DNA of 64,000 bases from Prorocentrum cordatum (Eukaryota). Location: positions 62,001 to 126,000 of the forward strand of contig CAUYUJ010000114.1 of the NCBI GenBank assembly GCA_963575745.1. The letters run 5' to 3'. Position 1 is the stretch's first letter, and every line of letters starts with the position of its first letter. The notes under the pieces are model-generated. The model ran no database searches. It was not told the origin of the DNA and was given only the letters and a program-made list of their open reading frames with translations. This document shows, piece after piece, positions 225 through 35,018 of the stretch. The position numbers were made by a program, and so were the translations under genes.

Positions 225-1914
225 CTAGCGGCTAGCGAGGGGCGAGGGACGAGGGACGAGGGATGTGTATTGTCGTATTTCGGAAGGGCTGATTCGACGC
301 CCGACTCCCGACTCCTCCTGCTTGCTCTGAAGATTGGTGACCAGTGGCGTAGCAGCATCGATCTTGGAATTGATATCGTTCATCTCGCCGAGGAGCTTGT
401 CGACGCTGTCCAAGGCGCCGCTAGCGCCAGTGATCAACTCCTCCGAGCCCGACGTGAGGATCTTAATCTTATCAGGTCCTAGAGCGATGTTCATCTTCTT
501 CTTGAGTGAAGTCATGTTGGTCGTCGTGACTCCGTGGACCATCTGCTCGTCTTCGAGCCTATGGATCACGCCCTGGCACTCCAACAAGGCTGCCTTTGCG
601 AACTGCTCGGCGCCCGCTCGTTTCTTGCGGTCGCCGCTGCTGCCTCCGCCACCACCGCCACCCGAGCCGCCGCCTGCGCCGCCTGCGCTGCCTCCTGCGC
701 CTCCGCGGCCTCCTCCGCCGCCGCCGTTGCCGCGGCGGTTGCCGCCGCCGCCGCCGTCGCCCATCGCCATCACCGCCGGCGCTGTTCGAGCTCTTGCCAC
801 CTTTAGACTTGACGATGGGTCCGAAGAGAGCGTCGTAGGGGTCATAGTCCTTGTCGTCGCTGTCGGCGCCGGCCTTCCTCTTCTTCGCGTCGGGCAGCTT
901 GACCTTCACGTAGTTGCCATCCGCATCGCCCGCCGCTTTAGTCGCGTCGTTGCCCTTGGTTATGGTTGGCTTCAACTTGGCCGCTACCTTCTTGAAGGCC
1001 GCGTCAGCGTCGTTCGCCGGGAGCTCGTTGTGCACGGTGACTTCAGCGCCAGATATCGAGCTCAGCTCAATGCACCCAGCAATGAACGGGATCGTTGATG
1101 AGAGTGCGATTCCTGGAAGGAGCGCCCGAACACAGTACACAAGTACACAGTGAGCGCGAGGAGCAGAGAACCGCTCCTCTCTCTCGAATCTCGAATCTCG
1201 AACGAAGAACGAATAATGAAGAACAAAGAATGCTGACGGGTGAAGGGTGAAGGGCGAAGGGTGAAGGGGCGAGAGGATGAGAGTTGAGAGTCCAAAGTCT
1301 AGTGGCAACTGGCAACTGGCAGCTGTCGACTGTCGAACGAGTAGGAGCAGGGAGGAGAGAGGAGGGGAGACAGGAGACAAGAGACAAAGGAAGGGGCGGG
1401 GGAGATGGGAGATGGGGCGAGGATCGAGGAGTCGAGGGGGAGGGATGGCGTTACGAGTTCATTGTCCAGTGTCCAGTCCTGTGAGGTCGGTGTTACCATG
1501 CCTGTGCTGCGTGCTGAAAGACGCAGGCAACTTCTTGCTGAAGTGTTCCTCGTAGATCGCCTTCGGCCAGCATGCCCCGCACTTCATCTTGCCCACCAGC
1601 TTGAGAGTCTCCGTGGCTCCAACAGTCTTCCTCGACTTCTTCGCGCGCCGCTTCCCAGAATGATCGGCGGCGTCAAATTCCTCCTGCTCCTGTCTGAACC
1701 GCTTCTGTCTCTCTGGTCCATCCCTCTCGATGTCCTTCTCAAGCTGCTTCCTCTCATCCTTATCAGCGTAGTTCCACTGGAGGTAGCTCGTGCACTGCCG
1801 ACACTGACAGCCCTCTCCGCCGCGAGTCCAGGTTACCTCCAAGCTGGAACGCCCGCACCACTTGCAGAACTTCTCCCTGTTGGAACCCTCGCTCCCCGAG
1901 TTGGATACGGGCAT
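225..1914 (-). CDS. Unknown protein with N-terminal CxxC..CxxC zinc-binding motif; at least 2 exons, frameshifted near 760
   Basis: Exon 1 is 1914-1479 (MPVSNS..FCKWCG..CQCRQCTSY..NTDLT). A GA..AG intron at 1478-1113 joins it in phase (aca g|ga atc) to exon 2 (GIALSSTIPF..). The frame switches near 760 into the Gly-rich, helical part of ORF 225..845. The 3' end is uncertain. Confidence 0.6.
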
Positions 1915-3015
1915 CGCTGGAGCCCGGCAGCCCGTGGACGTAGGATCCCAGATGAGTTGTGAGTAGGGCAAGCACAGCAACCTGCACAAAACAAACTCCT
2001 GCCAAACCAAGCGGCTCGAATGGTGGCGGCGGCCAGGAGTAGCACTAGCAACTAGCAGTGGGCAGTGACAAAACAAAGGGGTATACCGAGCAGACCTGAC
2101 CCCCCCACCCGCCGTGGGACTTGGGACCTCGGAAGGAGGGGGTCGAGCGGGGGAGAGGAGAGAGGAGAGGGGGAGGAGGAAGAGGGGGAAGGAGGAAGGA
2201 GGAGGGAGGAGGACGGAGGACCAGAAGGAGGAGAACAGCGGAGGAGGCGGAGGGAGGATAACGCACCCAGTGAACGAAGCCCGTCGACCGTCGATACATG
2301 CACCACGCGCGCTCTTGCATGCCAGGCGCCGCGGAGCCCCTAGCCCAGCGCCCAGCGCCCAGCTGTGGACGGCGGGCGGCCAGCGCGAGATGCTCGATGC
2401 TCGATGCTCGATGCTCGATGCTCTGACGCCTGACGCCGTGCGCTCTGAGCTCTGAACTCTGAAGTCTGACGTCTGACAACGCGCACAGGTCTGCTCGGCT
2501 TGAAGAGGGCAACGGGCAAAGGGCAACGGGCAACGCGCAACGCTGCATCAGGCATCAGGCATCCGTGCCTCAGCTAGCTACAGTCGGCAACTCGCCTAAA
2601 ATGTGAAACCTGAACTGTGAACTGTGAACTCGTCACTCGTCAGCTCGACTGTCGACGGCTCTCGGCCCTCGGCACCCGCAACCCGAAACCCGCATGCCGC
2701 ATGCCGCGTTAATATATTCGCTCTTCGCTCGATCCTCTTTCCCCTAGCTTATCTATAAATGATATATACTATGTCCCATTTCCTATCTCCTATCCCCCTA
2801 TCTCTCTCAATCACTTTCTCTCATGTATTGCTGTCTTGCGTATTGCTCTCGCCTCTCGCTCACACTCCTCCCTCCTCCCTCCTCGCTCCTCCTGGAGAAA
2901 TCTAAAGGCCTCCAGCCCCTGGCAATGGGCGCCCCGCCTCATAGGTTGAGTGTCGCAGCTGAACCTGGTCCGTCACCCGTCACCGTCGTCCTGGATCGCC
3001 CCGGGTGCTCCATCG

Positions 3016-3821
3016 TCACTCGTCACTCTCGTCGCTGTCGCCGTAGCCCACGCCCATGAGATTGTAACCGACAGCCATGGCCCGTTGTGCGTCAGCGTTC
3101 TGCGGCATGGCACGAATGCGCAAGCGCATCTCGCCGAGGAACACGCTCAACACCACCTGCGCGACCGTGCAGGCGGATGAGTCGAATGCATTGCCGGCCA
3201 TGTTCTTCAAAAACGAAGAACTGAACTCCATCATACGACCGGCGACCTCGCTCGCCCGCGGCTGCGGCCCGAGCAATTCACCGACGAGGGAACCCATCAT
3301 CATCAGATGTTCCACTCCATGGGCAAGCCTGCCCATATGAGCTAGATAAACCAAGCTCTTCTCGGTGAGGCACGCCGAACCATGCTTGATGAGCTCGCGG
3401 GAGCGACCGAAGGACATGTTGACATCTACGGTGCTCGGCTCATCCTCTGGCAATGACAAGTTGAGTCTCTCCAGCATGTCGAGCTGCCTGGCGGCCAACG
3501 CCTTCAAACCTGGATATCGCGCGGCCGCGCCCTCCTCCCGGAACGGCGAGGGCTGCCACCAAACAGAACCAGCCTTATTATTCCACACGGCGTGTCTGCC
3601 AGGCCATAAAGGGGCGGCCTCCTTCTTCTGTTTCTTCCGCGGCGGCTCAGCCGTCGCTGAGGAATTCACGTAGTCCTCTAGGCTGGCGTGTCTCTCCGGG
3701 AGAAGGAACTCGTCCAAGGGGGCCGCAGGGTGGTGGGACAGGCGGGCCAACACGGCCAGCGCCTTCGCCGCGAACTCCTCCTGCGAGACGCCAGCGGCCT
3801 CGAGCAAATCGTTCTTGACAC
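3016..3821 (-). CDS. DNMT exon 4 (target-recognition region, motifs IX-X)
   Basis: Acceptor ttctaag|gt gtc aag aac gat. ORF 3016..3807 contains DVNMSFGR, SACLTEKS, GVEHLMMMG and MAGNAF. Confidence 0.85.
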
Positions 3822-6800
3822 CTTAGAACCCCCGCCAATCGCAAATCGGGGCGCGGGGCGCAGAGAGGGGAAAGGGAGAAGGTAGGGGAGATGGGGGGCG
3901 ATGACAGAGAACAGAGACGAGAGAGGGGGGGCGGGGATGGGGATGGAAGAGGCGAGAGACAAGAGGAAGGAGGAAAGGGACGGGGAGGAGGGGAGAGAGC
4001 AAGGGAAAAGGGGAAGGAGCAGGGGGGGGATGTGAGAGGGAGGGGAGGAGGGAGGGGGGGAGGGGGGGGGGAAGAAGCGGGGGAAAAGGTGAATGTGGGA
4101 GAAGGGAAAAGAGGACAAAGGTGGGGGGGAAATACGTAAGATGGGGGAGGGAGGAAGGATGAGGGACGAGGGAGAAGGAATCAGGGCCCACGGCGTCGCA
4201 ATATTCCATTGGTTGGGGCTTGCTTGCGCCATCGGTTGCGCCCTCGTCCGCCGAGAATCAAACAAGCTCTTATTGCTTGCGCCATAGGTTGCGCCCTGGG
4301 GCGCCGAGAATAAAACGGGCCCCTAACATATGCGACCAGTTCAGTCCAGTCCAGTCCAGTTCAGCTTACTACGCGAAAAACAAATTCGGGCTACGCCCGA
4401 CAACAATCAAAACTAAGCTCGGCGACATGTTTAGTTTTTGTTTTCTGTGCGCGCACCTACGCAGATGCATACGTGCATATTGCGTATGGCAAATATGCAC
4501 ATAGCGAACACGCGGCCCGACGCCCGAACAAATAACCAATTGCAGGGCCCGGCTCCCGACTCCGTGCAATTGAGAAAAACAGAAAACAGAGATGCCCTTA
4601 TCCCCTCCCACCTCCCACCTCCTTAACGGTTGCGCGCAGAGAGAAGTTCGGATCCCGGGGCCCGAGGCAGTGCGAAGCACGGGACATGGGGCGCGCGACA
4701 TCGCGGGGGCGCACTCGCGCGCCCCCGCGCTTCACGCGCGGCACAACGCGCAACCCCATACCCCATGCCCCCATCGCGCGCGCGGGGGGGGGGGCGTTAG
4801 CGCGCGGCGCGCGGCCCCCTCTCCCCGCGCGCGGATGCTTCCCCCCGTGGGGCCGCGAAACGTTTGGGGCATGGGGAATGGGCGGGGGCACGGGGGATGA
4901 GGAGTGGGAAATGGGAAATGAGGATGAGGAGTGGGGAGCGGGGAATGGGCGGGGCGAAATCATTTCATGTGGATGCAGACGCACCCGCTGGGGGCTGGGG
5001 CCTTAGGCCTTAGGCTTTAGACCTTAGATTCTGAATTGAGCTCCCAACGGGGTCGCGAAGCGCGAAGCGTGGGAGGGGCGCGCCGAAAACCGAGGCGGGG
5101 GGCGGCGCGCGGGCGCGCGGGCGCAGCCGCTCGGGCTTCAGGCTCTAGCCAGGCGATGCGACGGGGGCCCCCGCCCCCCCTTAGGATGTCGGTCGTTTGA
5201 CTGTTTGACTTGTTTCTTGTTCGGTGGTCGGGGGTCTGGGATCTGGGGGCCGAGGTCCGAGGTCCGAGGGGATTGCATAATGGATAATCAGCGGTCTCCA
5301 CTGCGGCTGGGGGCTGGGGAGGGGGGATGGGGGGAGGGGCGAGGAGCTCAAACGCCGCGGCCTCGACGCCTTGACCTCGTTGACATTGTCAACCTGGTGG
5401 ACGGGCTGGCCGCGCTCCACCGCGCGCCGCGTTCTTCAATCAACGCGCTGCAGGCTGCAGCTTGGATGGCGTTGTTGTCGGCTCGGCCGGCCTCCTTCAG
5501 GGGCGCCGCGCAACCCTCCAGCACCATCCTGCGGCAACCCGAGTAGTTAGCGTCGGGGCCGAAAATGCGCGCTGCCAGGGGCAACGGGCAACAGCCCGGC
5601 GCCCCCACCAGCCGCGCGGCTCAAATGGGGCCGCCCTGGGGGCCGGGAGCGGCATGTGGACGCAGCCGCTGGAAGCTGGAAGCTGGACCTCGCGCCTTTT
5701 GCTGCGGCCAGCGGCCAGCGGCCAGCGGCCGGCGGCGACGCGCGCGAGGCTCTCATCTTTGACGCGCACGAAACGCGCGCTTCGAGCTCATAGCCCGACG
5801 GCCCACGGCCTGCGGCTTGCGGCATGCATCTCCACCTCCGAAGCGCCGTCTTCGTCCATGGGCCCACGTTACCCAAGATGTGGGATGTGGGATGCGGCCT
5901 TCGCGCGCCTCTCCGTCCGCAATGCCATCCTCGGACGCGCCTGCGCGCGCGGCGTGCATCGCAAGAGGCAGGCGTCCATCCTAGAACTCGCGACAAGAGG
6001 CAAGAGACAAGACCGGGTAATATTTGAGAGCCCCCACGATGCGCTTCGCACGCTCGGGCGAGGGTGCAGCGACCCGCCGCGTGGCCGATGCGGGCACTTG
6101 GCGAAATGCAGGTAGGACGTAGGACGTAGGACGCGAGCTCGGGCTTGCTCTGCCTTGTCCGCTATCGCCTCAAGTCGCTCAAGGGGCATGAAGCTTCCCT
6201 TGCCATCGTGCGCAGTCAGCTGCGGCGCGATTCGGTCGGCCGTCAATTGCCCGAGACAAAAGACAGGCCAGCCGCCGGCGCGGCGAAGGCATCCGCATAC
6301 TGCAACAAAGCAGTGTCCACCATGTCCTTCGCCATCTTGCCCAACGAGTTTTTACTTTCGTCGCTCTCTGCGGCGTTCCGCCTAACGTGGGCGACCTGTC
6401 AATCCGATTGACCTCTGCTACGCGGCCACGTGCGCGGCGCAAGGCTTGATCGCCGTCATCGTACGCATCAACGGATGCCGCGTGCTCTAAGAGCTGTGCT
6501 ATCACGTGCTCACGCCCGCGCCGCGCAGCGATATGGTGCGCAGAGCGCAGTGCCCCCCGCGGCGCCTGCTGAATGCTGAAGTCAACAGTCAACAGTCAAC
6601 AAGACATTCAAGCCACTCTTCGCGACTGGCGCAAGCGCGCCCACGGCTTACGGCTTGCAGCTTGCAGCTTGCGCAAGCCGAACCTGGTGCCTTGGTGCAC
6701 CATCGCCAGTCACCTAATTTCAGTCCATGTGCATCTGCATCGCCTCCACCTCGATCCTCGGCCCCCATCCCCCATCCGCCATCCGCCGCTGCTGCTCGCG

Positions 6801-7784
6801 CCTCGCGCCCTCTGCGCGCGCGCGGGCCAGCGCCCCCGGCCGCCGGCCACCGCTGCTTCCGCGAAATCGCGGCAGCTGGTCGCCAGAGAAAGTTTACGCG
6901 CCCTCTGCGACTCCTTGCGCGCACGTCCCACAAGGGGCAAGGGGTTCACCTGACCTCGCCGTTCCCATGACGGGGCGGTAGCCCGTGGGTCCGCGCAAGG
7001 ATGGGGGGCTCGCCAATGTTGGCAAGGCCGCGGTCAGAGGGTTTAACCTCTCTGGCCGAGCGCCGAGCGCCGATGGGCCATGGGGCGGCAAGTCGCAAGC
7101 GGCAACCACGCCGCGGGCGCTACATGCCCGGCCGCCGCGAAAACTTGCGGATCTGGGATCTGGCGCCGCGCGCCGCAGCCGCCGCGCGGCGCCCGGCGCC
7201 CCATGATGCGGGGCGCCCGCGAGGGCATTGTTGGGACAGGAGAAAGGAGAAAAGAGAAAGGACGACGACGAGGAACGAGGACCCATCACTTGCCGCTCGC
7301 GGCTCGCGCAGGCACGCGCGCCACGGCGGCAACCGCGCCTAAAGAAAAAAGAAAGGAAGTGGGGCAAGGCACAGGGCAAGGAGGGCGGGGGGCGCGAGGG
7401 ACATAAAATCAACAATCAACAACGAAACGTGTTTCTGGCGCGTCGCGCGTCGCGTTGGCCCGTTGACCGTTTCTGGTTTACGTGCATGCTGCGTGCCATG
7501 CGATGGCAAGCAACGCGCAAATCGCGGCGTACGCGTGTCCCGATGAAGGTTGTAAAAGTTGCGCGCGGCACGCGGTGCGCGCACGCGCCGTGTGAAGCAA
7601 ATGAGGGCAAGCGCAGCGCGTGGAAGTTAAGAACTTTCATGTTCAAGTAGTCGAAATCAAAAACATGCGTTCTATAGTCTATAATACAATCAACAATCAA
7701 ATTCATGTTACATTGCCACAGTGCCAGCCGAAAAGTTCGATAATCTGACGACTGGTTGTGGAGTGGGAAGATGTGCTCCAACAT

Positions 7785-7819
<35 letters not shown>

Positions 7820-10800
7820 CTCCTCATTCTCTCCTCTCTCGTAATCGACGCCGCGGACAAGCGGGTTGTCGACCTGCCTTGGATGCCTTCAGCCTTCAGG
7901 CGAGCTTGAGGCCGGCGCCGCGACAAGACACCAATGCGTCACACACACGCAAGCACACCTTTTCCACGCCTCCGCGGGGACACCTCCAGCGCGCAGCGCG
8001 TCCAACATAGTCCACAGCTCGCAGCCCACAAACGACGCATACCACATACACGCAACACGCAACCCACACGCACGCACACGCGCGCACCTCGCACCTCGCA
8101 CCTCGCACCTGTCACTTGTTTCCACCGCGGCGCGGCGAACGCGCTGTCGTGACACGTGACAGGCAACTAGAGACACGCGCACCGCGCACACACGCCCGCG
8201 CACCGCGCGCAAGCGCACTCTCTTTTTCATCCTCCAACGCCCAACGCGAGGACGACTCCAGCGGGTGCGCTATGAATCGGGATTCGGGATGCGAAACATA
8301 AATTGAATATTGAATTGCAACACACACGCACACATGCACGCACACACGCACGCACGTCACGCGTCTTCTGCGCACTCAACCTATTTCCCTACCGCCTAGA
8401 GCCTATAGCCTAGAGCCTAGAGTCATCCAATGCCGCCTAGAGTCATCTGTCATCCAATGCCAGGCGGAGCATGCGCCGACAAACGCATCCAATGCCGCCG
8501 AACGCCAAATGCAAATTTGCGAACCAATCTGGAATCTGGTCTCAGGCTGGCTCAGGTCATAGGTATTTGGCATTGGGGCTTGGTCTGAAATCTTAGGTGC
8601 ATGCGCGGGGAGAGCCAGAGGGTTCCAGGTTCCAGCGGAAGGAGGAAGGACCTAGGACCTACCACCTACGAGAAACGAAGCATGTAACATGGAACACTGA
8701 GCCTCATTTCAACATCTTAACGGGGTTGATACTCCTTCTGGGGGTCGGCGGAATGGCGCGAGCCACATGAACCATTGATCGCAAATCGCACTGGGGTTAC
8801 TCCTTACTCCTGAGCCCTGAGCTTGCTACGCTGCACTTTGCGACACCTGGGCCCTGGGGGGGGAGGGGGGAGAGGAGAGAGGGGAGGGGGGAGGAGGGAG
8901 GAAAGAAAGCGGAAGGAGGAGTGGGGAGTTGGGTGAAAAGGGAAAGGGGAGAGAAGGGAGGTGGAAGGAGGAAGGAGGAAGGAGGGCAAGAGGTAGGAGG
9001 TAGGAGGTAGGGAGCAGGGAGGTAGGGGGTAGGAGAGGGGAGAGGGGAGAGGGGAGAGGGGATTGGATACTGGATGGGGGGGGGGGGTCGGCAGGAGGCG
9101 GGAGGTGGGAGGTGGCAGGGGAGGAGAGGGGAATGCATTGCCTCCAACGGGGCGATCGGGCGATCGGGATCGTCGTCGTCGCGAGTCGTGAGTCATGAGT
9201 CTTTAGGTGCCGGGCGTCGGCACGACAACGGGCAAGTGCTTTGGAGCTTGGAGCTCGGCAAGGTCAGCTGTCAGCTCTCAGCTCCCTGCCCCTGACTCCC
9301 TGCTCCCTACGGGCTATGGGCCACGGGCTATGGGCTATGGGGCCACGGGCCACGAAGCGTTTGAGGTGCGTGCCGATTGCCGATATGGAATATGGAATAT
9401 GGAGATATAGACGGTCTGGGGTCCGGGGCCTGGGGCCTGGGGGCCTGGGGGGTGCGGGGATGCATGCGAACGGCGAACGGTGCCACCAGCAGGGGGCTCA
9501 GAGTTTTGTTTCGTGTGTATCTGCAGATTCCGAGTGCGGGGTGTGGAGTGTGGGGCGTGGGACTGGGGAACGGGGAAGGGGGGCTTGGGGCTTGCCCAGC
9601 ACCCAGCACCCAGCAGTGACGTGGCATGTGGCAGAGGGCAGAGGGCATGAGGAGATCGGAGATCAGGAGGTGAGAGGCGAGAGGTGAGAGGTGACGTGAG
9701 AGGTGAGACGCGAGAGGTGGAAGGTGGAGGGTGGGGGGTGGATGATCAAGAAGCAGGGATCAACCAAGCTTGGTTAGGGTAAGCGCCAAGGCCCAAGGCG
9801 CCCAGGCTGATGACTGCTGACTGCTGACTGTTTCCTGGTTTCTGATTCCAGCTTCCTGCTCCCTGCTCGTCGGGATTCGGGATGATGGCGGGAGGCGGCC
9901 TCTGCCCGGCGTTGCGGGCGGCGGCCTATCTCCCATCTGTCACCTTTCACCTTTGACCATTGTGTAGGCCGTAGGCGGTAGGCGTGCCAGAGGCCAGAGG
10001 CGAGATGCCAGATCAGATGTCATAATGCCAGAATCGGGATTCCTAAGCTAGTCTTGGCCTCTTGGCCAGGGCCATCCTGGCCCAGGATCGGAGCGCGCGC
10101 CTTGATTGGCCAGGGCATGGGGCATGGGGCATGGGGCATAGGGCAAGGGGCATGGAGTAAGGAATCGGAAGGCGGAGGGCGGAGGAGGATGCAGGAACTG
10201 GGGGGCGGAGGGAAAAGGGAGAGCGGGAGAGGGAGAAGGGGACATGGAAGTGGCAAAGAGCAAGGAGCAAGGATGGCGCCCACGCTGATCCCGGGCGCAG
10301 TGTGGCCGCGGCCTGGAAGCACTGAGCACTGCTGGGCAAAGATGGGACCTTCACCATCCATCACGAAGCGCCCTTGCCTGCTATCCGCCACCGTGCTCCC
10401 CTGGCACGCGGCACGCTGAGGCGTGGTACGTAACGCGTAACGAGGGGGCCGACGCCCAACGTGGCCCAATATGGCATATGGCCCCAGACGCCCAGACCCC
10501 AGACCGCGCCAGATGGAAGCTGGAAGCTGGAACAATATGGCTTCCTACCCCCGATCCCCTATACCCGTGGGCCGTGGGCCCGAGAGGGCCTCGGATGGAA
10601 GATGGAAGATGGACCCACGACCTAAGACCTAAGACCTACGACCCGCGATGTCATCGAGCATCGAGCATCGAGGCAGCCCCCCGAGATGCCGAGATGCCGA
10701 GAGGCGAGAGGCCAAGACAATCCAAAAAAGCCCCAGAATCCCACGGCAGGGGGAAGGGCCCCACAACGGCCGACGGCGCGAAAGGGACGCACGACGCACG

Positions 10801-13800
10801 ATAACCCCAGGAAAACAGAAAGCGGAGAGCCGCAGGCAGTGTATTTGAAAGGGTGCGCAGACCTGTGCAAGCGCGCAGGACCACTGATCACTTAGAGTCT
10901 AGAGAACAGAGAACAGAGAACTGCGTCCTCGCAAATTATGCGAGAGGGGGCAGGGGGCTGTAATGCCATGCCCCACTCGCTCCACTAGCTCGCTAGCTGC
11001 TAGCTCGCTGCTCACTTCCAAAGCCCCTGATCGTATTCTCACACACGCGCACCTTCCAGTCCAGGTCCGAGAGCCTACCCGAAGTCTCAGTAGTCTGCTG
11101 GTTCACCTGCGTCATCTGCCGATCTATCTGGTCCATGCGGTTGGTGATGGTCTGCATCTCATTAGTATTATGCCGGCTCACCTGCGTCATCTCCTGACCC
11201 AGCTGGTCCATGCGGTTGGTGGTGGCCTGCATCTGCTGCTCCGTATTGGCCAAAGCCAAGGTGGTGGCCAAGGCAGATGCTCTGTCACCTGCTCCGTCAC
11301 CTGCTGCTGCACCTGCTGCTCCGTCACCTGCTGCTGCACCTGCTGCTCCGGCACCTGCTGCCGCACCTGCTGATCCGCTCGATCCGCCCGATGCCGCGGC
11401 TGCCTCCAGTGCTTGCCCGCGTGCCTCGGAGGCCTGCAGGCGATCATTTGCATCCCTAAGCTGCCTCTGGAGCTGTTCTGAGCATCCCTCAGCCGCCTGG
11501 AGACGATCCTCCATTGCCTTCATGCGCTGGTCCCAGCCCGCTAGATGCCGCACGAAGAATTGCTCCAATGGCTCCTGCAAGCGAGTCGTCATGCCCATCA
11601 CGCGCTGGTCCGTCTCCAGCAGCTGATCCTGCACTTGCCGCAATTGATCCGATAGTTGGTCCTGGATGCGCTGGACCTCGCGCTCGGCCTCCTGCAAGTT
11701 GGTCTCCGCGCTGGACATCGTCGTCTCCACGTCCTGCAGATGGGTCCCCGCGCGGGTAGCCGTCGCCTCCGCGCGCTGCAACGTGCCCTCCGCCTCCTGC
11801 ACCTGATTCGCCAGGCTATCGCGAACCTCCTGCGCCCGCTGCAGAGTCTGCAGAGTGGTGTCCACAGTCTTGCGAAATGCAGCCGCCTCGTTCGCCTGGG
11901 CCTGCGACCACGCTGGCCAAGACTGACCTGCACCATCACTTGGAGCAGCTGCTGCCTGAGTGGGCTGCCCGCGGAGCTGCCTGTCATCACCAGCTGCTGC
12001 CGCAACGCCTGCACCTGGCGGAGCTCCTGGTGGCGGACTTGGCCGAGGCGGAGGAACTGGTGCCGCTCCCGCTGCGGCTCCCGCTGCCGCTGCCGCTGCC
12101 GCTGCCGCGTGCCGGACGCCGCCCCACGAGGCTGGGCGCGGGGGCCGCTGTGGGTTCGAGATCACAGCATCCTCTTGGCCAGATTCTTTCAACCACGCCA
12201 TCAAGAGTGCATCAACACTGCTCAGGTGCTTCTCCGACATCAGGTGGGTGTCCCAGTCCGCGTGTTCCCCGCGATTGCAGCAGTACGCGTTGCAAAGTTC
12301 GCAATGAAAACATTGCCACTCAGGTACATACTTGAGGTAGTTGACGGGCTCCATAGTCGACTCCCAGACCTGCGGCGCGATCATGGCTGTCGTCGGCGTA
12401 GCCCTGCGAGACATGTCTGCAGGCTGCGCCCGCCGCCCGCACTATGAGAAGGCAGTTCGCTGTTCGCTAGCCGCTAGCTGCTAGCTGAATGCTGAATGTC
12501 GACAGCTGAAAAGTCGATGCTCAATGCTCGACTGGATGTCGAGCGTCGAGCCAAAACGACTGCGGCCATCGGCCATCTCGCGTTTCGCGCTGGCACTTTG
12601 CATGGGGGCTTCTTGGAAGCCTTCTAGGGGGCCGGGGGCCTGCTGAAAGCGCCGAGCGTCGAAGTTCGTGTGCCCCCATCCCCCATCTTGGATCTTGGGG
12701 TCCTGGATCCTGGATCCTGGGCCCAACGCTCTCTGATCTCTGACCCAGTCCGCGACGCGCGGTTACCTTCGCGCCCCGCGCCCCTGGGGCGCGACCGGCG
12801 ACCTAACATCTTGCAGTGACCAATTGCCCTCGCACCTCGCACCCCCCCCCCCTCCCCCCCGAGCCCCGAGGGGTGATGGGGGGGAGAGATGCGAGATGAG
12901 GAATGAGAGGGGAAGGAGAGGGGAGAGGGAAGATGGGAGGGAGAGGGAGGAGGGAGGAGGGAGGTGGAGAGTGCGACTGCATACTGCATACTGCATGATG
13001 CATGATGCACGAGGGATTGGGGCTTGGGGCTTGGGGCGGTTGGAAGAACGAGTGAAGAATGAAGAATGCAGGATGCAGGATGCAGAATGGGATGCGGGAT
13101 GCGGCATGGACAGCGGGTTGGCATGGGAGATGAGAGATGGGAGATGGGAGGGAAGAGGGAAGGGAAGAGGGATGAGAGGGAAGAGGGGAAGGGGGACGGG
13201 GCCGAGGGTCGAGATGGGGGATTGGGGATGGGGGGAGGGGGAGGGAGAATGAGCGGTGGGAGGTGGGAGGGGTGGAGGGTGGAGGGTGGAGGGAGAAGAG
13301 AGGAGAGAGGAGAGAGGAGAGGGGAGAGGGGGGAGGAGGGAGGGAGGAGTGGGAGAAGAGAGGAGAGAGGAGAGAGGAGAGGGGAGAGGGGGGAGGAGGG
13401 AGGGAGGAGTGGGAGGAGGGAGGAGGGAGGAGAGGGGCGAGCGGGAGTTGACGGTAGACGGTAGACGGTAGACGAGCAGGTCTCGGGCCTCGAGGTGACA
13501 GATCACAGATCCCTGTCAGATGTCAGATGTCAGATGTACGACGTAGGACGCAGGACCCAGGAACCCAGGACTCAGGATCTCAGGATGGCTGATGGCTGAG
13601 AAGGAGACACAAAATGTAAAGGCGTGTTCGCGAACAGGGGAAGCCAAAATGCCTGGGATCCAGCTGCAAGGTGACCGAGGCAAAACCGGCCTCTGTGCTG
13701 AGGCGGTACACCGCCACGTCCAGGTTGGAGGGCCCCATGATGGTGTACTTCCCCCCCGCCGACATGTGCCTCGGCGGGGTCTTCGCGGTCTCGACATTCT

Positions 13801-20322: not shown

Positions 20323-21350
20323 GGCCCGACACGGGCCGCGGACAGCACTAAGGACTAAGATGTTGCGGGCGTGGGTGGCGGCTGTAAATAAAACTCTCTG
20401 ATCTCTGACCCTTGGCCCTTGGCCCTTGGAGCCCAGAGCCCAACGAACGCGCTGCGGATAAATCGATGACCGATCACCGCCCGACGCCCGACTCGGGACA
20501 TCCAGTTAGGTGCAAGGGGCAGAGGGCAAGGAGGCAAGGGCCGATGTGGCAGGGGCGACGACGACGCGCGCGCGATGCCTGGGGGGGCGCTGCCGCGGCC
20601 CCCAGCCCCCAGCCCAGCCCCAAATCCCTAGTCCTTGCGAGTGGTGAGTGGTTCGAGCAGCGTCCTGCGCGGCAACGAGATCCAATGTCCGAGATCCGCC
20701 AGCCCGCAGCCCGCCGCGGCCCGAAGCCCCGAATAACATGGAAAACCAATTATATCCTCTCCTCCCTCCCCCCTCCCTCTCCTCTCATAAATCATAAATC
20801 ATAATTCATACTCTTCGTGCTTCGTGCATTGCCTCCTCCCTCCTTCCTCCTCCCTCCTCCCCCCCCCTCATCCTCCGAGTTCTCCCCCTTCCCTCTTCCC
20901 CCTCCTCCTTCCTTTCTTCCTTTCACTCTCTACTCTCTCCTCCCCCCTCCTTCGCTCCGCGCGCCCCTCTCCCCCCCTCCCGACGCCGTGCCGCGTCGGC
21001 GACAAGTGCGGCTCCCAGGACTGCCCTGGGACGGGCCGCTCCGCTCCCCCCCGCGTCCCCCGCCTCTGATTTCTGATTGAGTTCTGAGCTTCCGCCCATT
21101 TCTCTACCTCCTTCCTCCTCCCCCCCCTCCTACCCCCACCCCTGATCACCCTCCATCCTCCATCCTCCATCTCGAGAAACTTGCCAGGGCAATCCCCGCG
21201 AGGGGCCCGGGGGGCGTTCTCGGCGGACGTTCGGCCAGCCATGCCACCTGCCACCTGCCACCTCGACGGTTTCCGGACACGTGAGCAGCGAGAAGGATGT
21301 TGAGGGAAAAGCGAAATTGCAACGGCTCAGGGCGCAGGAGCCAGCGAAGA

Positions 21351-22445
21351 TCACACCTCCACGAACTCCCCATGGTCCGTTAGGTTCGGCCCCGCCTCGT
21401 TCTCGGAGCCCCTCGTCGTCATCGGAACCATCGGAACCGTTAGGTTCGGCCTCGCTAGAGCATAGCACACGTCACAGCCAGGAAACAGATCACCGAAACT
21501 GAACTTGTAGTCAAAACACTTCAAACACGTCAAGTGTGCGTAGTACGGGTCATCCTTGTTCTCCTACGTGGGATATATGATGCAAACATACACAGAAACA
21601 CAGATATCAAGCATTATGCCTCCTCTAAGTGTCCCGCTCCCCTCTCCCTCCTTCCTCCCTTCTCCTGCTACTTCTCCCTTCTCCCCTCCTCCACCTCCGA
21701 CCTCCGTCACTGATTCGTTCCGTGCTTCACTCCCCCTCCCAAATCCCCTACTCATCTCACCTATGACCTATGTGTGATGTGGGTTGGTAAATTGGTGCCC
21801 TGCCCAGTCCTGCCAACTCTTCTCGTGTAAGCGCTTGATATACTCAGGTCGGTTGTCGACCCCGGCCCATGGTGGCGTTGGCGCATGGTCGATTTGAACG
21901 TTGCCGCTCGCACTCGAGGTAGCACAGCGGTCGGTACCACAGCCCATGCAATGTGCATGTTCGTCGTTCTCCATCCTGCCACACACCTGGCACTTCCACT
22001 GAACGCCCTCCATGCCCTCCTGCTCCGAGTCGTTCTCGTCCTCCGAGGCGGCCTCCCTGCCCTCGTCCTCCGAGGCGGCCTCCTCGTCCTCCGGGGCGGC
22101 CTCTTGCTTGCCCGTGCGCAGAGACAACGTCTTGCACGACCATGAGCCGTGAGAGCGCGAGCCCTCCTGCTCCGAGTCGTCGTCGCGCATCCCGAAATGG
22201 TGCCACGCCGCCGCCGCCCTGAACAAAGGGCCATGATAGATCCAAGAGCCTTGCCAGGCCGAGCCGTCCGAGTCGTCCTCCTGCTCCGCGCCCTCCCCGT
22301 GGATGCGAACGTCCTCCGCGGGCTCTATCTGGGCGGGGGAGATCTGCGCCGCCGCCACGTCGGCTTCGCACCTCGCGATCTCTGCTTCACTGTATCGGAT
22401 GGCGCCGGCGCGGCGCGCCTCGAAGTCCTGGTTCAGCCGCTCCAT
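21351..22445 (-). CDS. Acidic protein with RanBP2-type-like zinc finger and a second CxxC..CxxC motif (exons 22445-21810, 21563-21351)
   Basis: WKCQVCGRMENDEHAHCMGCG. A GA-AG intron at 21809-21564 joins SWQ|ENKDDPYYAHLTCLKC..GCDVC in frame. The C-terminus may be frameshifted near 21460. Confidence 0.6.
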
Positions 22446-22460
22446 GGAGCGAATGAGCTC

Positions 22461-22482
22461 TGAGCCAACAACAGGGCTGCGG
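22461..22482 (-). other. Degenerate spliced-leader-like sequence
   Basis: Minus strand reads ccgcagccctgttgttggctca. Its 5' end matches DinoSL at 7/8 and its 3' end at 8/8, about 15 nt upstream of ATG 22445. Confidence 0.5.
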
Positions 22483-23479
22483 GCTGCTGGGCTGCTGGTG
22501 CCTGATGCCCTGAGCAGTGAGCAGGGCAACATTACGAATTACGAATAAGATATAAAATGCGATTCCTCCTTCTCCCTTCTCCTCCCCCCTCCCTGATCCC
22601 TCCCCCCAGCAACTCTCTCTTGCACTCTTGCACAGGCGCGCGGCGCGCGCGCGCGCCGCCCCCCGCTTCGGCGCCTCGGAGTTGGCGTGGGGGGAAACGA
22701 CGACGACGACGCCTCCTCCTCCTCCTCCTCTCCTCTCCCCCTCCGTACTCCTCCAGCTCCACGCCCCCCGTCTCCTCACTCATCATTCCTCATTCCACAT
22801 CCACTCCACCCATCCTCCTGCTTCCCCTTTCATCTTTCTCCTACTGTAAACGAGGAAGGAGAGGAGAAGGCAGACGGGGGGGGCAATCGCGTGGGAGAGG
22901 AGAGAGGAGAGAGGAGGGAAGAGGGCGGGGAGGCGGAGGAGCGGAGGAGGGAGAGGTGGAGGGGGGAGGGGGGATGGGGCAGGCGGCAATCAGAAGGGGG
23001 AAGGGGGGGCAGGGAGCTGGCGGAGGAGGGGGCAGGAAGGAGGAAGGGGCAACTACTGGCGAGCAGTTTGCTTCACCAGTCAAATGACTGACCTTTGGCG
23101 GTGGCCAACGGCTCACACCGAGAAACGAGAAACTGGGAAAGCAGCATCCCAGGAGCCGGGAAGCCCGTGCATGGGGGCCACGAGGTTCACGGTTTACGCG
23201 GGCAGCAGAGACCAACGGGCTAGGTGGGATAGGAGAGAGGCGGGGCCAGAAACACGCCCGGCGCGTGTCGCGTGCCACATGTCACGCGACACGCGGTCAC
23301 CCGGCCGCGCGCCGCGCGGCGCGCAATCGCGCGTTGCGCGCCGCGTGAGATGACATACAACAGGAGCTTGCTCACAAAGAAGAGCATGTGTGGATCGGCC
23401 ATACTGGGGAGGAATCCAGCCGCCACCTGCCCAGGGACTGAAGCCCTGCGCTCCACCGAACATGTGGCCTTCCCCCTTC

Positions 23480-23680
23480 TCGCCGAGGAAGCCCTCGTCG
23501 CCGAAGAAGCCCTCCTCGCCGAAGAAGCCTTCCTCGCCGATGAAACCCTCCTCGCTCCACGCCTCAAGCGGCAAGCGGCAATCTGCCTCGCCGAAGACCG
23601 GAGAACGACGAAACCCTCGTCGCCGAAGAAACCCTCCTCGCCGAAGAAAACCTCATCGCCGAAGAAAACCTCCACCTCCA
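23480..23680. repeat. 18-bp tandem repeat (gccgaagaarccctcstc), two clusters
   Basis: Translates as SSPKKP repeats on + and FFGEEG repeats on -. Confidence 0.8.
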
Positions 23681-23737
23681 CTCCCCGCTCCTCGCACATC
23701 ACTCAAGCCTCATGCCTCAGGCCTCAGGCCTCAGGCC

Positions 23738-32029
<8,292 letters not shown>

Positions 32030-33166
32030 GGCCGCCAGCCGCCAGCCGCAGCGCGCGGCGCGAAGGGCCGAACGCCCTGGGCCCAAGGAGGAGGAAGAAG
32101 GAAGAGGAGAGAGGGAAGAGCAGGAGCCTCCTCCTCCTCAGCATTCAGCACTCAGCACTCAGCATCCAGCATCCTCTATCCTCCTCCCTCCTCCTCCCTT
32201 CCTCCCTCCTCCTCTTCTTCCCGCATCCCCCCTCCCTCCTCTTCAATTTTCTCTTCGTCCTCTCAGCTCTCAGCGTTCTCTTCATCATCATTCATCCTTC
32301 ATCCTTCATCATTCATCCTCTCATCCTCTCAGACTTCTCATTTCTCATTGCTCATTTCTCTTCCTCATCTCTCATCTCCTCCTCCTCCTCCTCCTCCTCC
32401 TTCCTCCTCGCTCCTCGTCCCCCTCCTTCTCCTTCTCCTTCCTCCTCCCCCTCCTCCTCCCTCCCCCCATCCACCCTCCATGATCCTTACCCCAGCGGCG
32501 CGCGCGGCGCGCGCGGCGCGCGGCGCGCGCGCGCCCGCCTCGAAGTTGAAGACGTCGGCCGGGCGGCGCGACGAATGACGACGGCGACGACGACGACGAC
32601 CGACGACGACGACCCCCGCGTCGACGCCGACGCCGACTCTGACGACGACGACGACAACCGACGACGACGACACCCGCGTCGACGCCGACGCTGACGACGA
32701 CGAAGGGGAGAGGGAGCGGACAGCGGACAACAACCAAGCGACGGAGGAGAGCAGCATGGTGGCGAAGGACCCAGTCATAGCCTGGCGAAGAACCCAACCA
32801 TAGCCTGGCGAAGGACCTAGCCATAGGCCATAGCCCATAGCCCATAGCCCGGCGAAGGACCCAGGGGAGGAGACTGCGGAGTGCGGCGGAGGCGGAGAGG
32901 AGAGAGGAGAGGAAAGGAGGAGAGAGGAGAGAGGAGGAGAGGCAGAGGATCAGAGGATGACGGATGAGAGGAGGAAGGAGGATGGAGGATGGAGGAAGTA
33001 AATCGTTAAGAGTATAGAGGATGCCCTGCGACTTGCGAATGGACGGAGGACGGAGGACGGAGGGCGGAGGAAGAGGACGAGAGGACGAGATTGGCGATTT
33101 TTCTTCAGCCGCCGACCCCTCCACGCTTCCCGCTTCCACGCTCCACGCGTGGTCCACGCTCCACGA

Positions 33167-34495
33167 CTACCCAATGCGCATATACAAATATGAGTAGCGA
33201 ATGGGCCTAATCTCCAGCCCTCTTGCATCGTCTACAGTGTTATTCATATTCGAACCCAGCGAGTCGTGAATTGCCATCTTCTCGGCCGCCGCGCACTGGC
33301 GGTCTGGCATCGATGCCACAACATGCATTGCTTTATGGTCCACGCAATGGGGGCGCATATCTTTGTCGCGACGGCGACGGCCGTCGCCGTCATCGTCGAG
33401 AAAGCCAGGGCCACCTAGAAACCTCCACTTCGGATCAGACGTCGTGCCAATGTATATTGGGCGGCGGCCCGCGCTCTTGCGCAAGTACCTCAAACGGGCG
33501 CGCCACTCCTCCTCGTGGACGTCTAGCAGCGGCTGGTGCACCACAATCCTAATGTCGTCTATGTCCTTGCACTGCTGAGGCACGTCGTCACGCGCCATCT
33601 CCCAGAGCACGCGATGCCGATTCTCACGAGACCGTGAACGCATCCGACGCATGGCGAGGCCTGTGCGATCATCAGGGCTCCTTCTGGGGCCTGCGCCAGC
33701 AGCAGCCTTCTTATCGGGGCCCCCATCATCGTCGTCGTCACTGGCGATTTTCACGACCTCGCCGACGTCTTCGACTGCTGCAAGAAGCTCGCCGACGTCT
33801 TCGACTGCAGGCGGCGCCCATGCCGGGCTCTTTGTAGATTTAGTGCGAGCGCCGACGCCATCATCATCATTGTATTGACTCAGCCAACTTTCATCACTGC
33901 TTTGACTCAGCATCGTCTGAGATGATGCTCCCGCTGCTCTGCCCTCGCCTCCAGCGACTAGCGGGAGCAATGCACCATGGGCCGAGGAATGCGGCCCAGC
34001 CTCCTGGCCATTGCCGCCGCCGCCACCCGCTGCTCTGCCGCCCATCTCATCCTGCTGGTCGATGACGGGCTTGACCTCCTCGACGTTGCCACCGCCGCCG
34101 ATTTCATCAGCTGCTCTGACGCGCATCTCCGGCTGGTCGATGATGGGTTTGACCTCGCCGGCGCTGCCACCGCCGCCAGATGCATCAGCTGCTCTGGCAC
34201 CCATCTCCTCCTGCTGGTCGACAATGCGTTCGGCCTCGCCGGCGCTGCCACCGCCGCCAGATGCATCAGCTGCTCTGGCACCCATCTCCTCCTGCTGGTC
34301 GACAATGCGTTCGGCCTCGTCGGCGCTGCCGCCGCCGCCATCGTGCTCGACGGCGCCCTGAATCCGCTGCCGCTCGCACCGCTCGATGAAGTCCTCGACT
34401 GCATTGGCCATGCAAGTCATCTCGTTCTTGTACTTTCCCTTGTTGACGGGTGGTCGGTTCTTGGCCGACGCAGGCAAGGGGGCCGCGCGACTCAT
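33167..34495 (-). CDS. Intronless protein with 27-aa repeats and a C-terminal GIY-YIG-like nuclease domain (apparently permuted)
   Basis: RPIYIGTTSDPKWRF..H..AAAEKMAI..NMNN..G..YSYLY supplies YIG-T, Arg, Glu and Asn in GIY-YIG order. An 81-nt repeat occurs about 4 times at 34000-34340. Confidence 0.7.
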   Translation of the reverse strand: MSRAAPLPASAKNRPPVNKGKYKNEMTCMANAVEDFIERCERQRIQGAVEHDGGGGSADEAERIVDQQEEMGARAADASGGGGSAGEAERIVDQQEEMGARAADASGGGGSAGEVKPIIDQPEMRVRAADEIGGGGNVEEVKPVIDQQDEMGGRAAGGGGGNGQEAGPHSSAHGALLPLVAGGEGRAAGASSQTMLSQSSDESWLSQYNDDDGVGARTKSTKSPAWAPPAVEDVGELLAAVEDVGEVVKIASDDDDDGGPDKKAAAGAGPRRSPDDRTGLAMRRMRSRSRENRHRVLWEMARDDVPQQCKDIDDIRIVVHQPLLDVHEEEWRARLRYLRKSAGRRPIYIGTTSDPKWRFLGGPGFLDDDGDGRRRRDKDMRPHCVDHKAMHVVASMPDRQCAAAEKMAIHDSLGSNMNNTVDDARGLEIRPIRYSYLYMRIG

Positions 34496-34683
34496 CAAGG
34501 GCTCCCAGCTTCGCGCTTCGCGCTGCGCGAAGCGCGAAGCGCGAGTAACTTCGCGCTCTCGCGCCGCCTCCCAGGGGGGAAGAGGAGGATGCGGAATCGG
34601 AGCCGAACCGCGAAGCGCGAATAACTTCGCGCCCTCGAGGGCGCCCTTGACTCATAGCCCTGCGGCCTCTGAGCCCTGAGCCC

Positions 34684-34710
34684 TGAGCCAAGAGCCAAAA
34701 CGGCTATGGT
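34684..34710 (-). other. Relict spliced-leader-like sequence carrying a 7-nt duplication
   Basis: Minus strand reads accatagccgttttggctc[ttggctc]ag versus ACCGTAGCCATTTTGGCTCAAG (17/19 before the duplication). Confidence 0.8.

Positions 34711-34975: not shown

Positions 34976-34976
<1 letters not shown>

Positions 34977-35018
<42 letters not shown>

What the first reader, a model, noticed from the sequence alone, without database searches (positions are those of the whole stretch)
225..34710. Candidate giant cargo-carrying DNA transposon: hAT-like transposase, DNMT5-like methyltransferase, GIY-YIG nuclease and zinc-finger genes
Seen: seven genes lie on the minus strand in one ~34.5-kb block (GIY-YIG-like, DDE transposase, RanBP2-type zinc finger, DNMT, two nested genes, CxxC protein). 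The block shares a private mutational signature (7-nt stutter), spliced-leader-like leaders and intron style, and these fade at the 33-bp minisatellite. Known: DNMTs ride on dinoflagellate retrotransposons, and fungal KDZ-type DNA transposons carry DNA-modifying enzymes. Inference: this is a single large mobile unit with its own DNA-modifying and DNA-cutting enzymes. I do not recognise this combination as a described family. No TIR or TSD was found, and the left end may lie outside the window.
Basis: partly seen in the sequence, partly recalled or inferred. Interest (0 to 1): 0.9.

Follow-up and report, generated by a model that had tools for sequence, protein, structure and literature searches.

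The report
Gene block marked by 7-base stutter
A 35-kb run of same-strand genes holds a broken hAT-like transposase gene and an intact DNA methyltransferase gene, it looks more like an ordinary gene array than a giant transposon, and its non-coding DNA is packed with unexplained 7-base duplications that stop abruptly at one edge.

Summary
Seven minus-strand genes lie in 1-34.7 kb.

- **hAT-like gene (30261-23762).** A homologue's model matches Hermes transposase at Z 15.3. The window's copy is broken: no ATG, two frameshifts, one TAA.
- **DNMT5-like gene.** It is intact, with 3 exons, 554 aa and GT-AG introns of 5.9 and 9.8 kb. Each intron holds another gene.
- **Leader relics.** Three genes carry an exact DinoSL-like 11-mer upstream (3 found, 0.04 expected). 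They look like retrocopies of mRNAs.
- **7-nt stutter.** Exact heptamer duplications number 365 in the block, 9 in the rest of the window (7 of them before 35.4 kb) and 2.3 in shuffles. They cover 26% of non-coding bases and 1.4% of exon bases, and they end at the 33-bp minisatellite.

The giant-transposon reading is not supported. I found no ends, the transposase is dead, and a leader-like sequence and the minus-strand orientation continue beyond the block. GIY-YIG, RanBP2 and CxxC remain labels by eye. Copies, linkage and empty sites could not be tested. The sharp stutter boundary shows that the block has its own history, and its mechanism is unknown.

The parts
1..35400 (.). Heptamer-stutter domain. 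Non-coding DNA is full of exact and decayed 7-nt tandem duplications. The left end lies outside the window and the right end is at about 35.4-35.6 kb.
   Evidence: 365 exact duplications in 1-34710 against 9 beyond it; shuffles give 2.3. 25.7% of 23,085 non-coding bases lie in perfect 7+7 repeats, against 1.4% of 12,315 exon bases, 0.2% of 36-64 kb and 0.1% in a shuffle. The peak is sharp: offset 7 gives 290, offset 6 gives 40 and offset 8 gives 31. Boundary.
228..1914 (-). Cys-rich ('CxxC') gene of unknown function, at least two exons (1462-1914 and 228-1120). No leader relic.
   Evidence: ORFs and ATG. Pfam gave no relevant hit. The CxxC label is by eye only.
3016..20322 (-). Intact stand-alone DNMT5-like C5 DNA methyltransferase gene. 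Exons are 19688-20322 (motifs I, IV), 13609-13832 (VI, VIII) and 3016-3821 (IX, X). Introns are 5,855 and 9,787 nt.
   Evidence: Exon 1 hits PDB 7r76 at E 4.2e-5 across motifs I-IV. A GT-AG splice model gives 554 aa with no internal stop. Exon 3 atlas hits reach 0.95-0.97, and 13 of 30 fall in a set with PF00145. Motifs VI-X are by eye. There are 0 stutters in the three exons.
10993..12565 (-). Nested gene N2 in DNMT intron 2: a 473-aa coiled-coil ORF with a zinc-finger-like N-terminus, and a leader-like relic at 12545-12565.
   Evidence: ORF. Relic with the exact 11-mer. Only weak Pfam matches below cutoff. 0 stutters in the ORF.
16127..17851 (-). Nested gene N1 in DNMT intron 1. ATG at 17715 and a leader-like relic at 17830-17851. 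There is a frame switch near 16.9 kb; intron or frameshift was not resolved.
   Evidence: The relic reads CCGTAGC, six extra bases, then CCGTTTTGGCTCAAA.
21768..22471 (-). Gene with one W-x-C-x2-C...C-x2-C zinc finger (RanBP2-like by eye) at about 21998, and a weak leader-like sequence at 22458-22471.
   Evidence: Pfam has no zf-RanBP hit at E<=1.
23762..30261 (-). Broken copy of a roughly 1,450-aa hAT-like transposase-family gene. It has no in-frame ATG, frameshifts near 29620 and 29365, and a TAA at 28175-28177. Introns carry stutters and exons carry none.
   Evidence: 124 relatives at E<=1e-3. tblastn with P0003 gives E 7e-85 and 2e-51. A profile of 10 long homologues maps 7 window ORFs collinearly over positions 18-1445. 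Lesions. Fold. Stutter positions.
30400..31880 (.). Recent tandem duplication with units about 675-780 bp apart. It contains a (CCACCA)n tract, and on the minus strand an A-run of 116 in one copy and 9 in the other. It replaces the 5' end of the hAT-like gene.
   Evidence: Overall column identity is 90%, and the copies are near-identical outside the A-run and the microsatellites (by eye).
33167..34709 (-). GIY-YIG-like gene, 442 aa from the ATG at 34495, with 81-nt repeats in its N-terminal half and a leader-like relic at 34689-34709.
   Evidence: ORF. Five relatives at 56-66% identity, none with a Pfam domain. Atlas lead at 0.86 to GIY-YIG, T5orf172 and MUG113 clusters. Relic.
35474..35876 (.). 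33-bp minisatellite, 12.6 copies, at the right edge of the stutter domain.
   Evidence: Tandem Repeats Finder. Lag-7 profile.

Best explanation
The block is a stretch of a co-oriented gene array of the kind seen in organisms that trans-splice a dinoflagellate-type leader. It is not one transposon.

It holds:
- three genes without a leader relic: an intact stand-alone DNMT5-like methyltransferase with two giant introns, a Cys-rich gene, and a long hAT-like gene that stayed free of stutters while its introns filled with them, and only later lost its start and acquired two frameshifts and a stop;
- at least three retrocopied genes (N1, N2 and the GIY-YIG-like gene), each with its own leader relic.

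After these genes were in place, a process that duplicates exactly 7 bases acted on the whole block. The most likely mechanism is fill-in repair of breaks with a 7-nt stagger. This roughly doubled the non-coding DNA, and selection kept it out of exons.

The DNA to the right of the minisatellite never saw this process. That DNA is rich in mobile-element remains.

What is shown: gene content, gene states, the stutter statistics, exon avoidance and the boundary. What is inferred: retroposition, the order of events, the break-repair mechanism and the reason for the boundary.
For: - **Orientation.** All convincing ORFs across the whole 64 kb are on the minus strand.
- **Leader relics.** The exact 11-mer occurs 3 times on the minus strand, 100-250 nt upstream of ATGs, against 0.04 expected. 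A fourth leader-like sequence lies at 53.9 kb, outside the block.
[quoted passage not shown] Passages in PMC5890265 say that exon-rich host Dnmt5/Dnmt6 paralogues in Symbiodinium mostly lack extra domains.
- **DNMT.** The ORF is intact with GT-AG introns.
- **hAT copy.** It is broken.
- **Ends.** No TIR or TSD found.
- **Order of events.** Stutters lie inside the leader relics and the hAT introns, so they came after the genes arrived.
- **Exon avoidance.** 8 stutters in 12.6 kb of exon-like sequence, against 15.6 per kb elsewhere in the block.
- **Length specificity.** The single sharp peak at offset 7 argues for a length-specific enzymatic step over general slippage.
Against: - The sharp right edge of the stutter domain is not predicted by an ordinary host locus. 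It needs an extra assumption: a younger or translocated right flank, or a mis-join.
- A unit that evolved elsewhere and then inserted here would explain the edge directly.
- Whether the stutter is genome-wide or confined to islands is unknown, because no genome is held.
- A hAT-like gene with stutter-free exons fits selection on a host gene. It equally fits lineage-level selection on an active element.
- The DinoSL consensus used for comparison is recalled, not taken from a call.
- Retrocopy status rests on the relics alone. Only one A-run exists (31205-31320), 1.85 kb from the GIY stop.
- No expression data could be obtained.
Confidence: 0.55

Rival explanations
1. The whole block (35 kb or more) is one giant cargo-carrying DNA transposon, driven by the hAT-like transposase and carrying the DNMT, the nuclease-like gene and the zinc-finger genes. 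The stutter is its private history, acquired before it landed here.
For: - The stutter boundary at the minisatellite is sharp, and the flank is stutter-free.
- A hAT-like transposase-family gene lies inside the block, and catalytic-type residues (WDET, D-A-A-S-x-N, CxxH, E-W-R-H) are still readable.
- Its exons are stutter-free while its introns are not. That fits long selection on an element lineage.
Against: - No TIR or TSD was found.
- The transposase copy is dead.
- Three genes carry their own leader relics, so they arrived separately as cDNA.
- The DNMT has 5.9- and 9.8-kb introns with nested genes.
- Orientation and a leader-like sequence are shared with the flank.
- 19 of 21 homologues scanned had no Pfam family, and none had a KDZ or other cargo-linked domain.
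- No second copy or linkage is shown anywhere.
Confidence: 0.1
2. The edge is a junction between two DNAs of different origin. It could be an assembly mis-join at the micro- and minisatellite tract (34.7-35.9 kb). It could also be a real translocation, introgression or large insertion that put a stutter-rich segment next to stutter-free, element-rich DNA.
For: - The switch sits exactly in 1.2 kb of simple repeats.
- The two sides differ in repeat style: period 7 on the left, and periods 9, 11, 12, 20 and 44 on the right.
- The right side starts at once with mobile-element-like ORFs.
Against: - Both sides share GC level, strand and the same G-for-A variant in their leader-like sequences (CGTTTTGGCT on the left, CGTTTTTGGCT on the right). 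This argues for one genome.
- No read evidence either way.
Confidence: 0.2
3. The stutters are footprints of a cut-and-paste element. An element that makes 7-bp target duplications, possibly the resident hAT-like family, repeatedly inserted and cleanly excised by local hopping. Each event left the duplicated target behind.
For: - One dominant length (7) with a minor one (8): 365 and 29 runs, against 2.3 and 0.7 in shuffles.
- A transposase-family gene is resident.
- The duplicated heptamers show no sequence motif.
Against: - No element flanked by 7-bp repeats remains in 64 kb: 0 found, and shuffles gave 0, 1, 0.
- hAT elements make 8-bp duplications and untidy footprints (recalled), yet offsets 8-13 are only mildly raised.
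- The density of about 16 per kb is extreme.
- The domain is lopsided around the gene: 5 kb to the right and 24 kb or more to the left.
Confidence: 0.1

Closest known systems
hAT superfamily transposases (Hermes, PDB 6dwz, 4d1q, 2bw3)
   Same: An RNase-H-like core interrupted by a large all-helical insertion, with the last acidic residue on a late helix. VIA Z 15.3, 380 residues aligned, rmsd 4.0 Å, spanning Hermes 138-609. The top 7 Foldseek rows are Hermes. D, D, CxxH and E motifs are conserved in the family.
   Different: No Pfam hAT dimerisation, BED or other domain in the window ORFs or in 20 of 21 homologues. Foldseek E is only 1e-3. The proteins are about 1,300-1,700 aa with a C-terminal extension of about 600 aa of unknown fold. 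No TIR or 8-bp TSD was seen. The window copy is broken.
DNMT5 (Cryptococcus Dnmt5, PDB 7r76, deposited as 'Rad8'; that this entry is Dnmt5 is recalled) and the domain-less dinoflagellate Dnmt5-type genes
   Same: Motif I (CSGT) and motif IV (SPC) align at E 4.2e-5. Host Dnmt5/Dnmt6 paralogues without extra domains and with many exons are described for Symbiodinium (passages of PMC5890265). A dinoflagellate-specific DNMT5c class is described in passages of PMC9998398.
   Different: Only 554 aa, ending just after motif X. There is no SNF2 ATPase or RING, and no long N-terminal region as described for DNMT5c. No relatives were found by two word-indexed searches. The two introns are very large and each hosts another gene.
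Spliced-leader relics of retrocopied genes in dinoflagellates ('recycled cDNAs'; Slamovits and Keeling 2008, seen only as a citation in PMC7789003)
   Same: Leader-like sequence on the coding strand 100-250 nt upstream of the ATG of single-ORF genes.
   Different: The relics differ from the recalled consensus by an A-to-G change and are interrupted by 7-nt duplications. There are no clear poly(A) tails except one A116 run. Trans-splicing in this organism was not shown.
Cargo-carrying giant DNA transposons
   Same: A transposase-family gene lies next to a DNA-modifying enzyme gene in one co-oriented block of 35 kb or more with a sharp edge.
   Different: No KDZ or tyrosine-recombinase signature. 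No ends, no copies, a dead transposase, and several 'cargo' genes that are separate retrocopies.
DNMT-bearing retrotransposons of Symbiodinium (PMC5890265, passages)
   Same: A methyltransferase gene close to mobile-element genes in an organism of the same broad kind.
   Different: There the DNMT domain sits inside LINE or DIRS elements. Here it is a spliced three-exon gene with no reverse transcriptase or recombinase of its own.

Membership tests
hAT superfamily | DDE RNase-H-like catalytic core split by an all-alpha insertion domain | tested here: met
   AF2 model of homologue P0003: pLDDT 74.4 overall, core above 90. VIA Z 15.3 to Hermes over 380 residues; the next family, ISCth4, scores Z 10.0. 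Window ORFs map collinearly to the family profile. The window's own copy was not modelled because it is frameshifted.
hAT superfamily | Sequence signature of the hAT C-terminal dimerisation domain or BED finger (Pfam) | tested here: not met
   No such hit in 60+22 window ORFs or in 21 homologues.
hAT superfamily | Short TIRs flanked by 8-bp target duplications | tested here: inconclusive
   No 11-nt perfect TIR with a TSD of 6-9 nt at 1.5 kb or more apart. Only low-complexity inverted repeats were found. The element's ends are unknown and the copy is decayed.
DNMT5 | C5-methyltransferase motifs in canonical order, with the closest solved relative being Dnmt5 | tested here: met
   Motifs I-IV align to 7r76 at E 4.2e-5. 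ENV, FGxPxxRxR and GNA motifs are by eye in exons 2 and 3. Atlas lead to PF00145 clusters at 0.95. Pfam PF00145 itself did not hit single exons.
DNMT5 | C-terminal SNF2-type ATPase (DNMT5a/b) | tested here: not met
   The spliced ORF stops 40 aa after motif X. No SNF2 hit appears on any long minus-strand ORF.
GIY-YIG nuclease superfamily | GIY...YIG motif pair with conserved Arg, Glu and Asn, and the GIY-YIG fold | tested here: inconclusive
   'PIYIGTT...WRF...AAE..AI...NMNN' is conserved in 6 of 6 aligned sequences, read by eye. The atlas gives 0.86 only. Pfam gave 0 of 6 and the PDB profile search gave 0. The AF2 model has pLDDT 41, so no fold search was made.
Giant cargo-carrying DNA transposon | Defined termini with a target-site duplication | tested here: inconclusive
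   None found at the right edge or anywhere else. The left end is outside the window.
Giant cargo-carrying DNA transposon | Recurrence of the same gene linkage in other copies or loci; empty sites | not testable with these tools
   No genome is held. Nothing in the metagenome collection or the viral collection.
Giant cargo-carrying DNA transposon | Intact transposase in the unit | tested here: not met
   No in-frame ATG before the first homologous residue, two frameshifts, and a TAA at 28175-28177.
SL-relic retrogenes | Leader-derived sequence at the 5' end on the coding strand | tested here: met
   Three exact copies of CGTTTTGGCTC against 0.04 expected. Extended matches to the recalled 21-nt leader with 3-5 differences.

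The most novel reading that the evidence does not exclude
The 7-base stutter records a so far undescribed, length-specific DNA-breaking or transposase-like activity. It has roughly doubled the non-coding DNA of a domain of 35 kb or more and stops at a sharp edge. Either the domain is a very large unit that evolved elsewhere and moved here, or a resident hAT-like enzyme has repeatedly cut its own neighbourhood with a 7-nt stagger. In both cases the stutter would be a readable footprint of domain-wide enzyme activity, and its avoidance of exons would be a built-in map of constrained sequence.
Probability: 0.25. Interest if true: 0.85.

Novelty: new variant of a known kind. Interest (0 to 1): 0.6.

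Why it matters
- **The stutter.** If real and biological, it is a mutational process of unusual strength and precision. Forty-four per cent of the block's non-coding bases sit in 7+7 repeats with at least 6 of 7 matches. The process is confined to one domain and can be dated relative to gene arrivals. It could show how introns and spacers grow in these genomes, and it marks constrained sequence without any alignment.
- **The hAT-like family.** It has 124 clusters in the representative library, proteins of about 1,450 aa and no Pfam signature. It is an unannotated branch of a major transposase superfamily, and it may be domesticated.
- **The cautionary point.** The giant-transposon idea would have been striking, but it rests on features that mostly belong to the genome's general style (co-orientation, leader relics).

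Tried and rejected
- **Pfam.** 60 long minus-strand ORFs at E<=0.01 gave nothing relevant: 3 of 60 had weak hits, all below cutoff. 22 chosen ORFs at E<=1 gave only RVT_1 for 49037-50134, also below cutoff.
- **Six-frame read-through.** I then worked from ORF lists.
- **Own genome.** Not held.
- **Earlier findings.** Three look-ups, nothing to show.
- **Sequencing runs.** No RNA holder is listed. There is therefore no depth, junction or empty-site evidence.
- **Word-indexed protein searches.** DNMT exon 1 and exon 3, 'longer' lengths: none.
- **Cluster look-up.** Switched off.
- **Collection scans.** Two alignments were too divergent to use. With alignment A3 the metagenome scan gave 225 pattern matches and 0 confirmed. 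A degenerate GIY-motif pattern gave 0. Viral contigs with the hAT, GIY and DNMT queries gave 0 confirmed of 28, 11 and 5 pattern matches.
- **PDB sequence searches.** DNMT exons 2 and 3 and the neighbouring 36-39 kb ORFs gave nothing relevant.
- **GIY domain.** The fold has pLDDT 41 and was not searched. Pfam and a PDB profile gave none.
- **Ends.** TIR plus TSD searches gave none.
- **Full 21-nt leader.** With up to 3 mismatches: 0.
- **Literature.** Two searches for heptamer or 7-bp tandem duplication and one for hAT in dinoflagellates gave nothing that describes this stutter or this family. The second heptamer search was poorly aimed, and none of the 15 papers listed held a heptamer term.
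- **The recent tandem duplication.** Comparing its two copies showed no 7-bp indel, so it gives no information on whether the process is still active.
- **Complex prediction.** Not used, because no binding claim is made.


Full report
**Setting.** The window has about 61% G+C. No genome is held for it. Pfam recognises almost nothing. Of 60 long minus-strand ORFs, 3 had weak hits below cutoff and none was relevant. Of 22 chosen ORFs at E<=1, only a LINE-type RVT_1 match at 49037-50134 appeared (E 1.5e-5, below the curated cutoff). Every ORF with protein-like composition, in the block and in the remaining 29 kb, lies on the minus strand.

**The transposase-like gene.**
- An exhaustive HMMER search with ORF 28561-29403 found 124 proteins at E<=1e-3. 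Of these, 18 were at <=1e-10 and 5 at <=1e-30. The best has 51% identity.
- Of 21 homologues scanned, 19 had no Pfam family. One was a spurious immunoglobulin-repeat protein and one had a sub-threshold DUF hit.
- tblastn with the homologues shows that the window copy runs from 30261 to 27635, with a switch out of frame near 29620 and back near 29365.
- It has an in-frame TAA at 28175-28177 where relatives have Gln.
- There is no in-frame ATG upstream of the first homologous residue. A recent tandem duplication sits there instead.
- A profile of ten long homologues (1,463 positions) maps seven window ORFs in order, from position 18 to 1445. These include 24381-25757 (E 7e-21) and 23741-24097 (E 2.6e-8). 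The gene therefore spans 30261-23762.
- An AlphaFold model of homologue P0003, built with 29 aligned sequences, has mean pLDDT 74.4 and a core above 90.
- Foldseek's top seven rows are Hermes transposase, but at E 1e-3 or weaker.
- VIA-align gives Hermes Z 15.3 (380 residues, rmsd 4.0 Å, Hermes 138-609). Next come ISCth4 at 10.0, retroviral integrases at about 9.8 and P element transposase at 8.6.
- The family is thus a divergent, unannotated hAT-like lineage with a C-terminal extension of about 600 residues. The window holds a dead copy of it.

**The methyltransferase.**
- Exon 1 (19688-20322) matches PDB 7r76 at E 4.2e-5 across motifs I and IV. From memory, that entry is Cryptococcus Dnmt5. 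The depositors call it Rad8.
- ORF 13583-13891 carries ILENV and FGFPCSRTRLYI, and ORF 3019-3822 carries a GNAF motif. These are read by eye. Neither ORF hit a methyltransferase in PDB.
- The atlas places exon 3 near clusters with PF00145 at 0.95, as 13 of 30 hits.
- GT-AG junctions that keep the frame join the three exons into 554 residues without a stop. The introns are 5,855 and 9,787 nt.
- There is no SNF2 part.
- Papers read in passages say that Symbiodinium has exon-rich host Dnmt5/Dnmt6 paralogues that mostly lack extra domains (PMC5890265), and that dinoflagellates have their own DNMT5c class (PMC9998398).

**Other genes.**
- The GIY-YIG-like ORF has five relatives at 56-66% identity with a conserved 150-residue C-terminal domain. 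None has a Pfam family.
- The family label rests on an atlas score of 0.86 and on motifs read by eye. Pfam, a PDB profile search and a fold attempt (pLDDT 41) gave nothing.
- The RanBP2-type finger and the CxxC label are by eye only.

**Leader relics.** The full recalled 21-nt dinoflagellate leader is absent at up to 3 mismatches. A fuzzy search found leader-like sequences on the minus strand at:
- 34689-34709, upstream of the GIY-like gene;
- 17830-17851, upstream of N1;
- 12545-12565, upstream of N2;
- 22458-22471, a weaker match upstream of the zinc-finger gene;
- 53924-53935, upstream of ORF 52866-53843, which is outside the block.

The shared 11-mer CGTTTTGGCTC occurs three times exactly, against 0.04 expected, and 0 of 100 shuffles reached three. 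[quoted passage not shown] The simplest reading is that N1, N2 and the GIY-like gene are separate retrocopies. The DNMT, the Cys-rich gene and the hAT-like gene show no relic.

**The stutter.**
- Exact tandem duplications of a primitive 7-nt unit number 365 in 1-34710 (10.5 per kb). There are 9 in 34711-64000. Seven of those lie at 34.7-35.4 kb and only two lie beyond. Markov shuffles of the block give 2.3, with a maximum of 6.
- Periods 6 and 8 give 52 and 29.
- Of 374 runs, 292 have three or four base types.
- Counting 7 or more consecutive matches by offset gives 290 at offset 7, 40 at offset 6, 31 at offset 8 and 75 at offset 14. In the right part, offset 7 gives 2.
- Perfect 7+7 repeats cover 25.7% of 23,085 non-coding bases of the block. 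They cover 1.4% of 12,315 exon bases, 0.2% of 36-64 kb and 0.1% of a shuffle. With at least 6 of 7 matches the figures are 44.2%, 3.7%, 1.6% and 1.8%.
- No stutter lies in the DNMT exons, N1, N2, the zinc-finger gene, the GIY ORF or the mapped hAT exons. The hAT introns carry them at normal density.
- The 129 exactly 14-nt runs show no target motif.
- The lag-7 excess ends between 35.2 and 35.6 kb, at the minisatellite.
- Stutters lie inside the leader relics, so the process acted after those genes arrived.
- The recent duplication at 30.4-31.9 kb has almost no stutters and shows no 7-bp indel between its copies.

**Ends and copies.** I found no long inverted repeats other than simple sequence. 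There is no 11-nt TIR with a TSD of 6-9 nt. No 7-bp direct repeats frame a 12-nt inverted pair within 8 kb: 0 found, and shuffles gave 0, 1, 0. Scans of the metagenome and viral collections found no relatives.

**Reading.**
- The gene labels that matter, hAT-like and DNMT5-like, hold.
- The evidence for one mobile unit reduces to the stutter boundary.
- Against it stand the dead transposase, the absence of ends, the separate retrocopy origin of three genes, the giant intron-nested structure of the DNMT, and the fact that strand and leader-like sequences continue into the flank.
- I therefore favour an ordinary co-oriented array whose non-coding DNA underwent a domain-limited, length-specific duplication process (0.55).
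- The rivals are a junction of two DNAs of different history, including a mis-join (0.2), a giant transposon (0.1), and footprints of local transposition (0.1).
- The mechanism of the stutter is inferred only. A single sharp length suggests fill-in of 7-nt staggered breaks, not slippage.
- Its restriction to this block is unexplained, and this is the most interesting result.

Noticed in passing
window 36053-41229 (-): A run of mobile-element-like ORFs starts right after the minisatellite. ORF 36377-37432 has an integrase-like D..D..E pattern with 'PWQN..ER', read by eye. ORF 37189-38787 (533 aa) is of unknown family. Pfam and PDB sequence searches gave nothing relevant, and no LTR pair was seen.
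   Followed up: partly
window 49037-50134 (-): LINE-type reverse transcriptase fragment. Pfam RVT_1 at E 1.5e-5 and 25.3 bits, below the 29.6 cutoff.
   Followed up: partly
window 52866-53935 (-): A 326-aa ORF with a signal-peptide-like start and GC3 of 0.86. About 100 nt upstream of its ATG lies a leader-like TTTTGGCTGAAG and a perfect 20-nt tandem duplication (53865-53909). This shows that leader-like sequences are not limited to the block.
   Followed up: partly
window 30400-31880: A recent tandem duplication with units about 675-780 bp apart. On the minus strand its A-run is 9 in one copy and 116 in the other. It sits where the hAT-like gene's start should be.
   Followed up: yes
window 45583-47330: About 1.3 kb of imperfect (TCA)n followed by (CAT)n. 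This is the lowest-GC and most skewed part of the window.
   Followed up: no
proteins P0009, P0016, P0073, P0088 and others (homologues of window 23762-30261): Long family members carry an HMG-box-like stretch (by eye) after the transposase-like part, and a conserved Cys/His-rich C-terminal module. The module also matches window 23741-24097 (E 2.6e-8 against the profile).
   Followed up: partly
window 33958-34340 (-): The N-terminal half of the GIY-like ORF is built from 3.9 copies of an 81-nt in-frame repeat.
   Followed up: no
window 10996-11377 (-): N2 contains in-frame 75-nt and 27-nt tandem repeats in a coiled-coil-like, Gln- and Glu-rich region.
   Followed up: no
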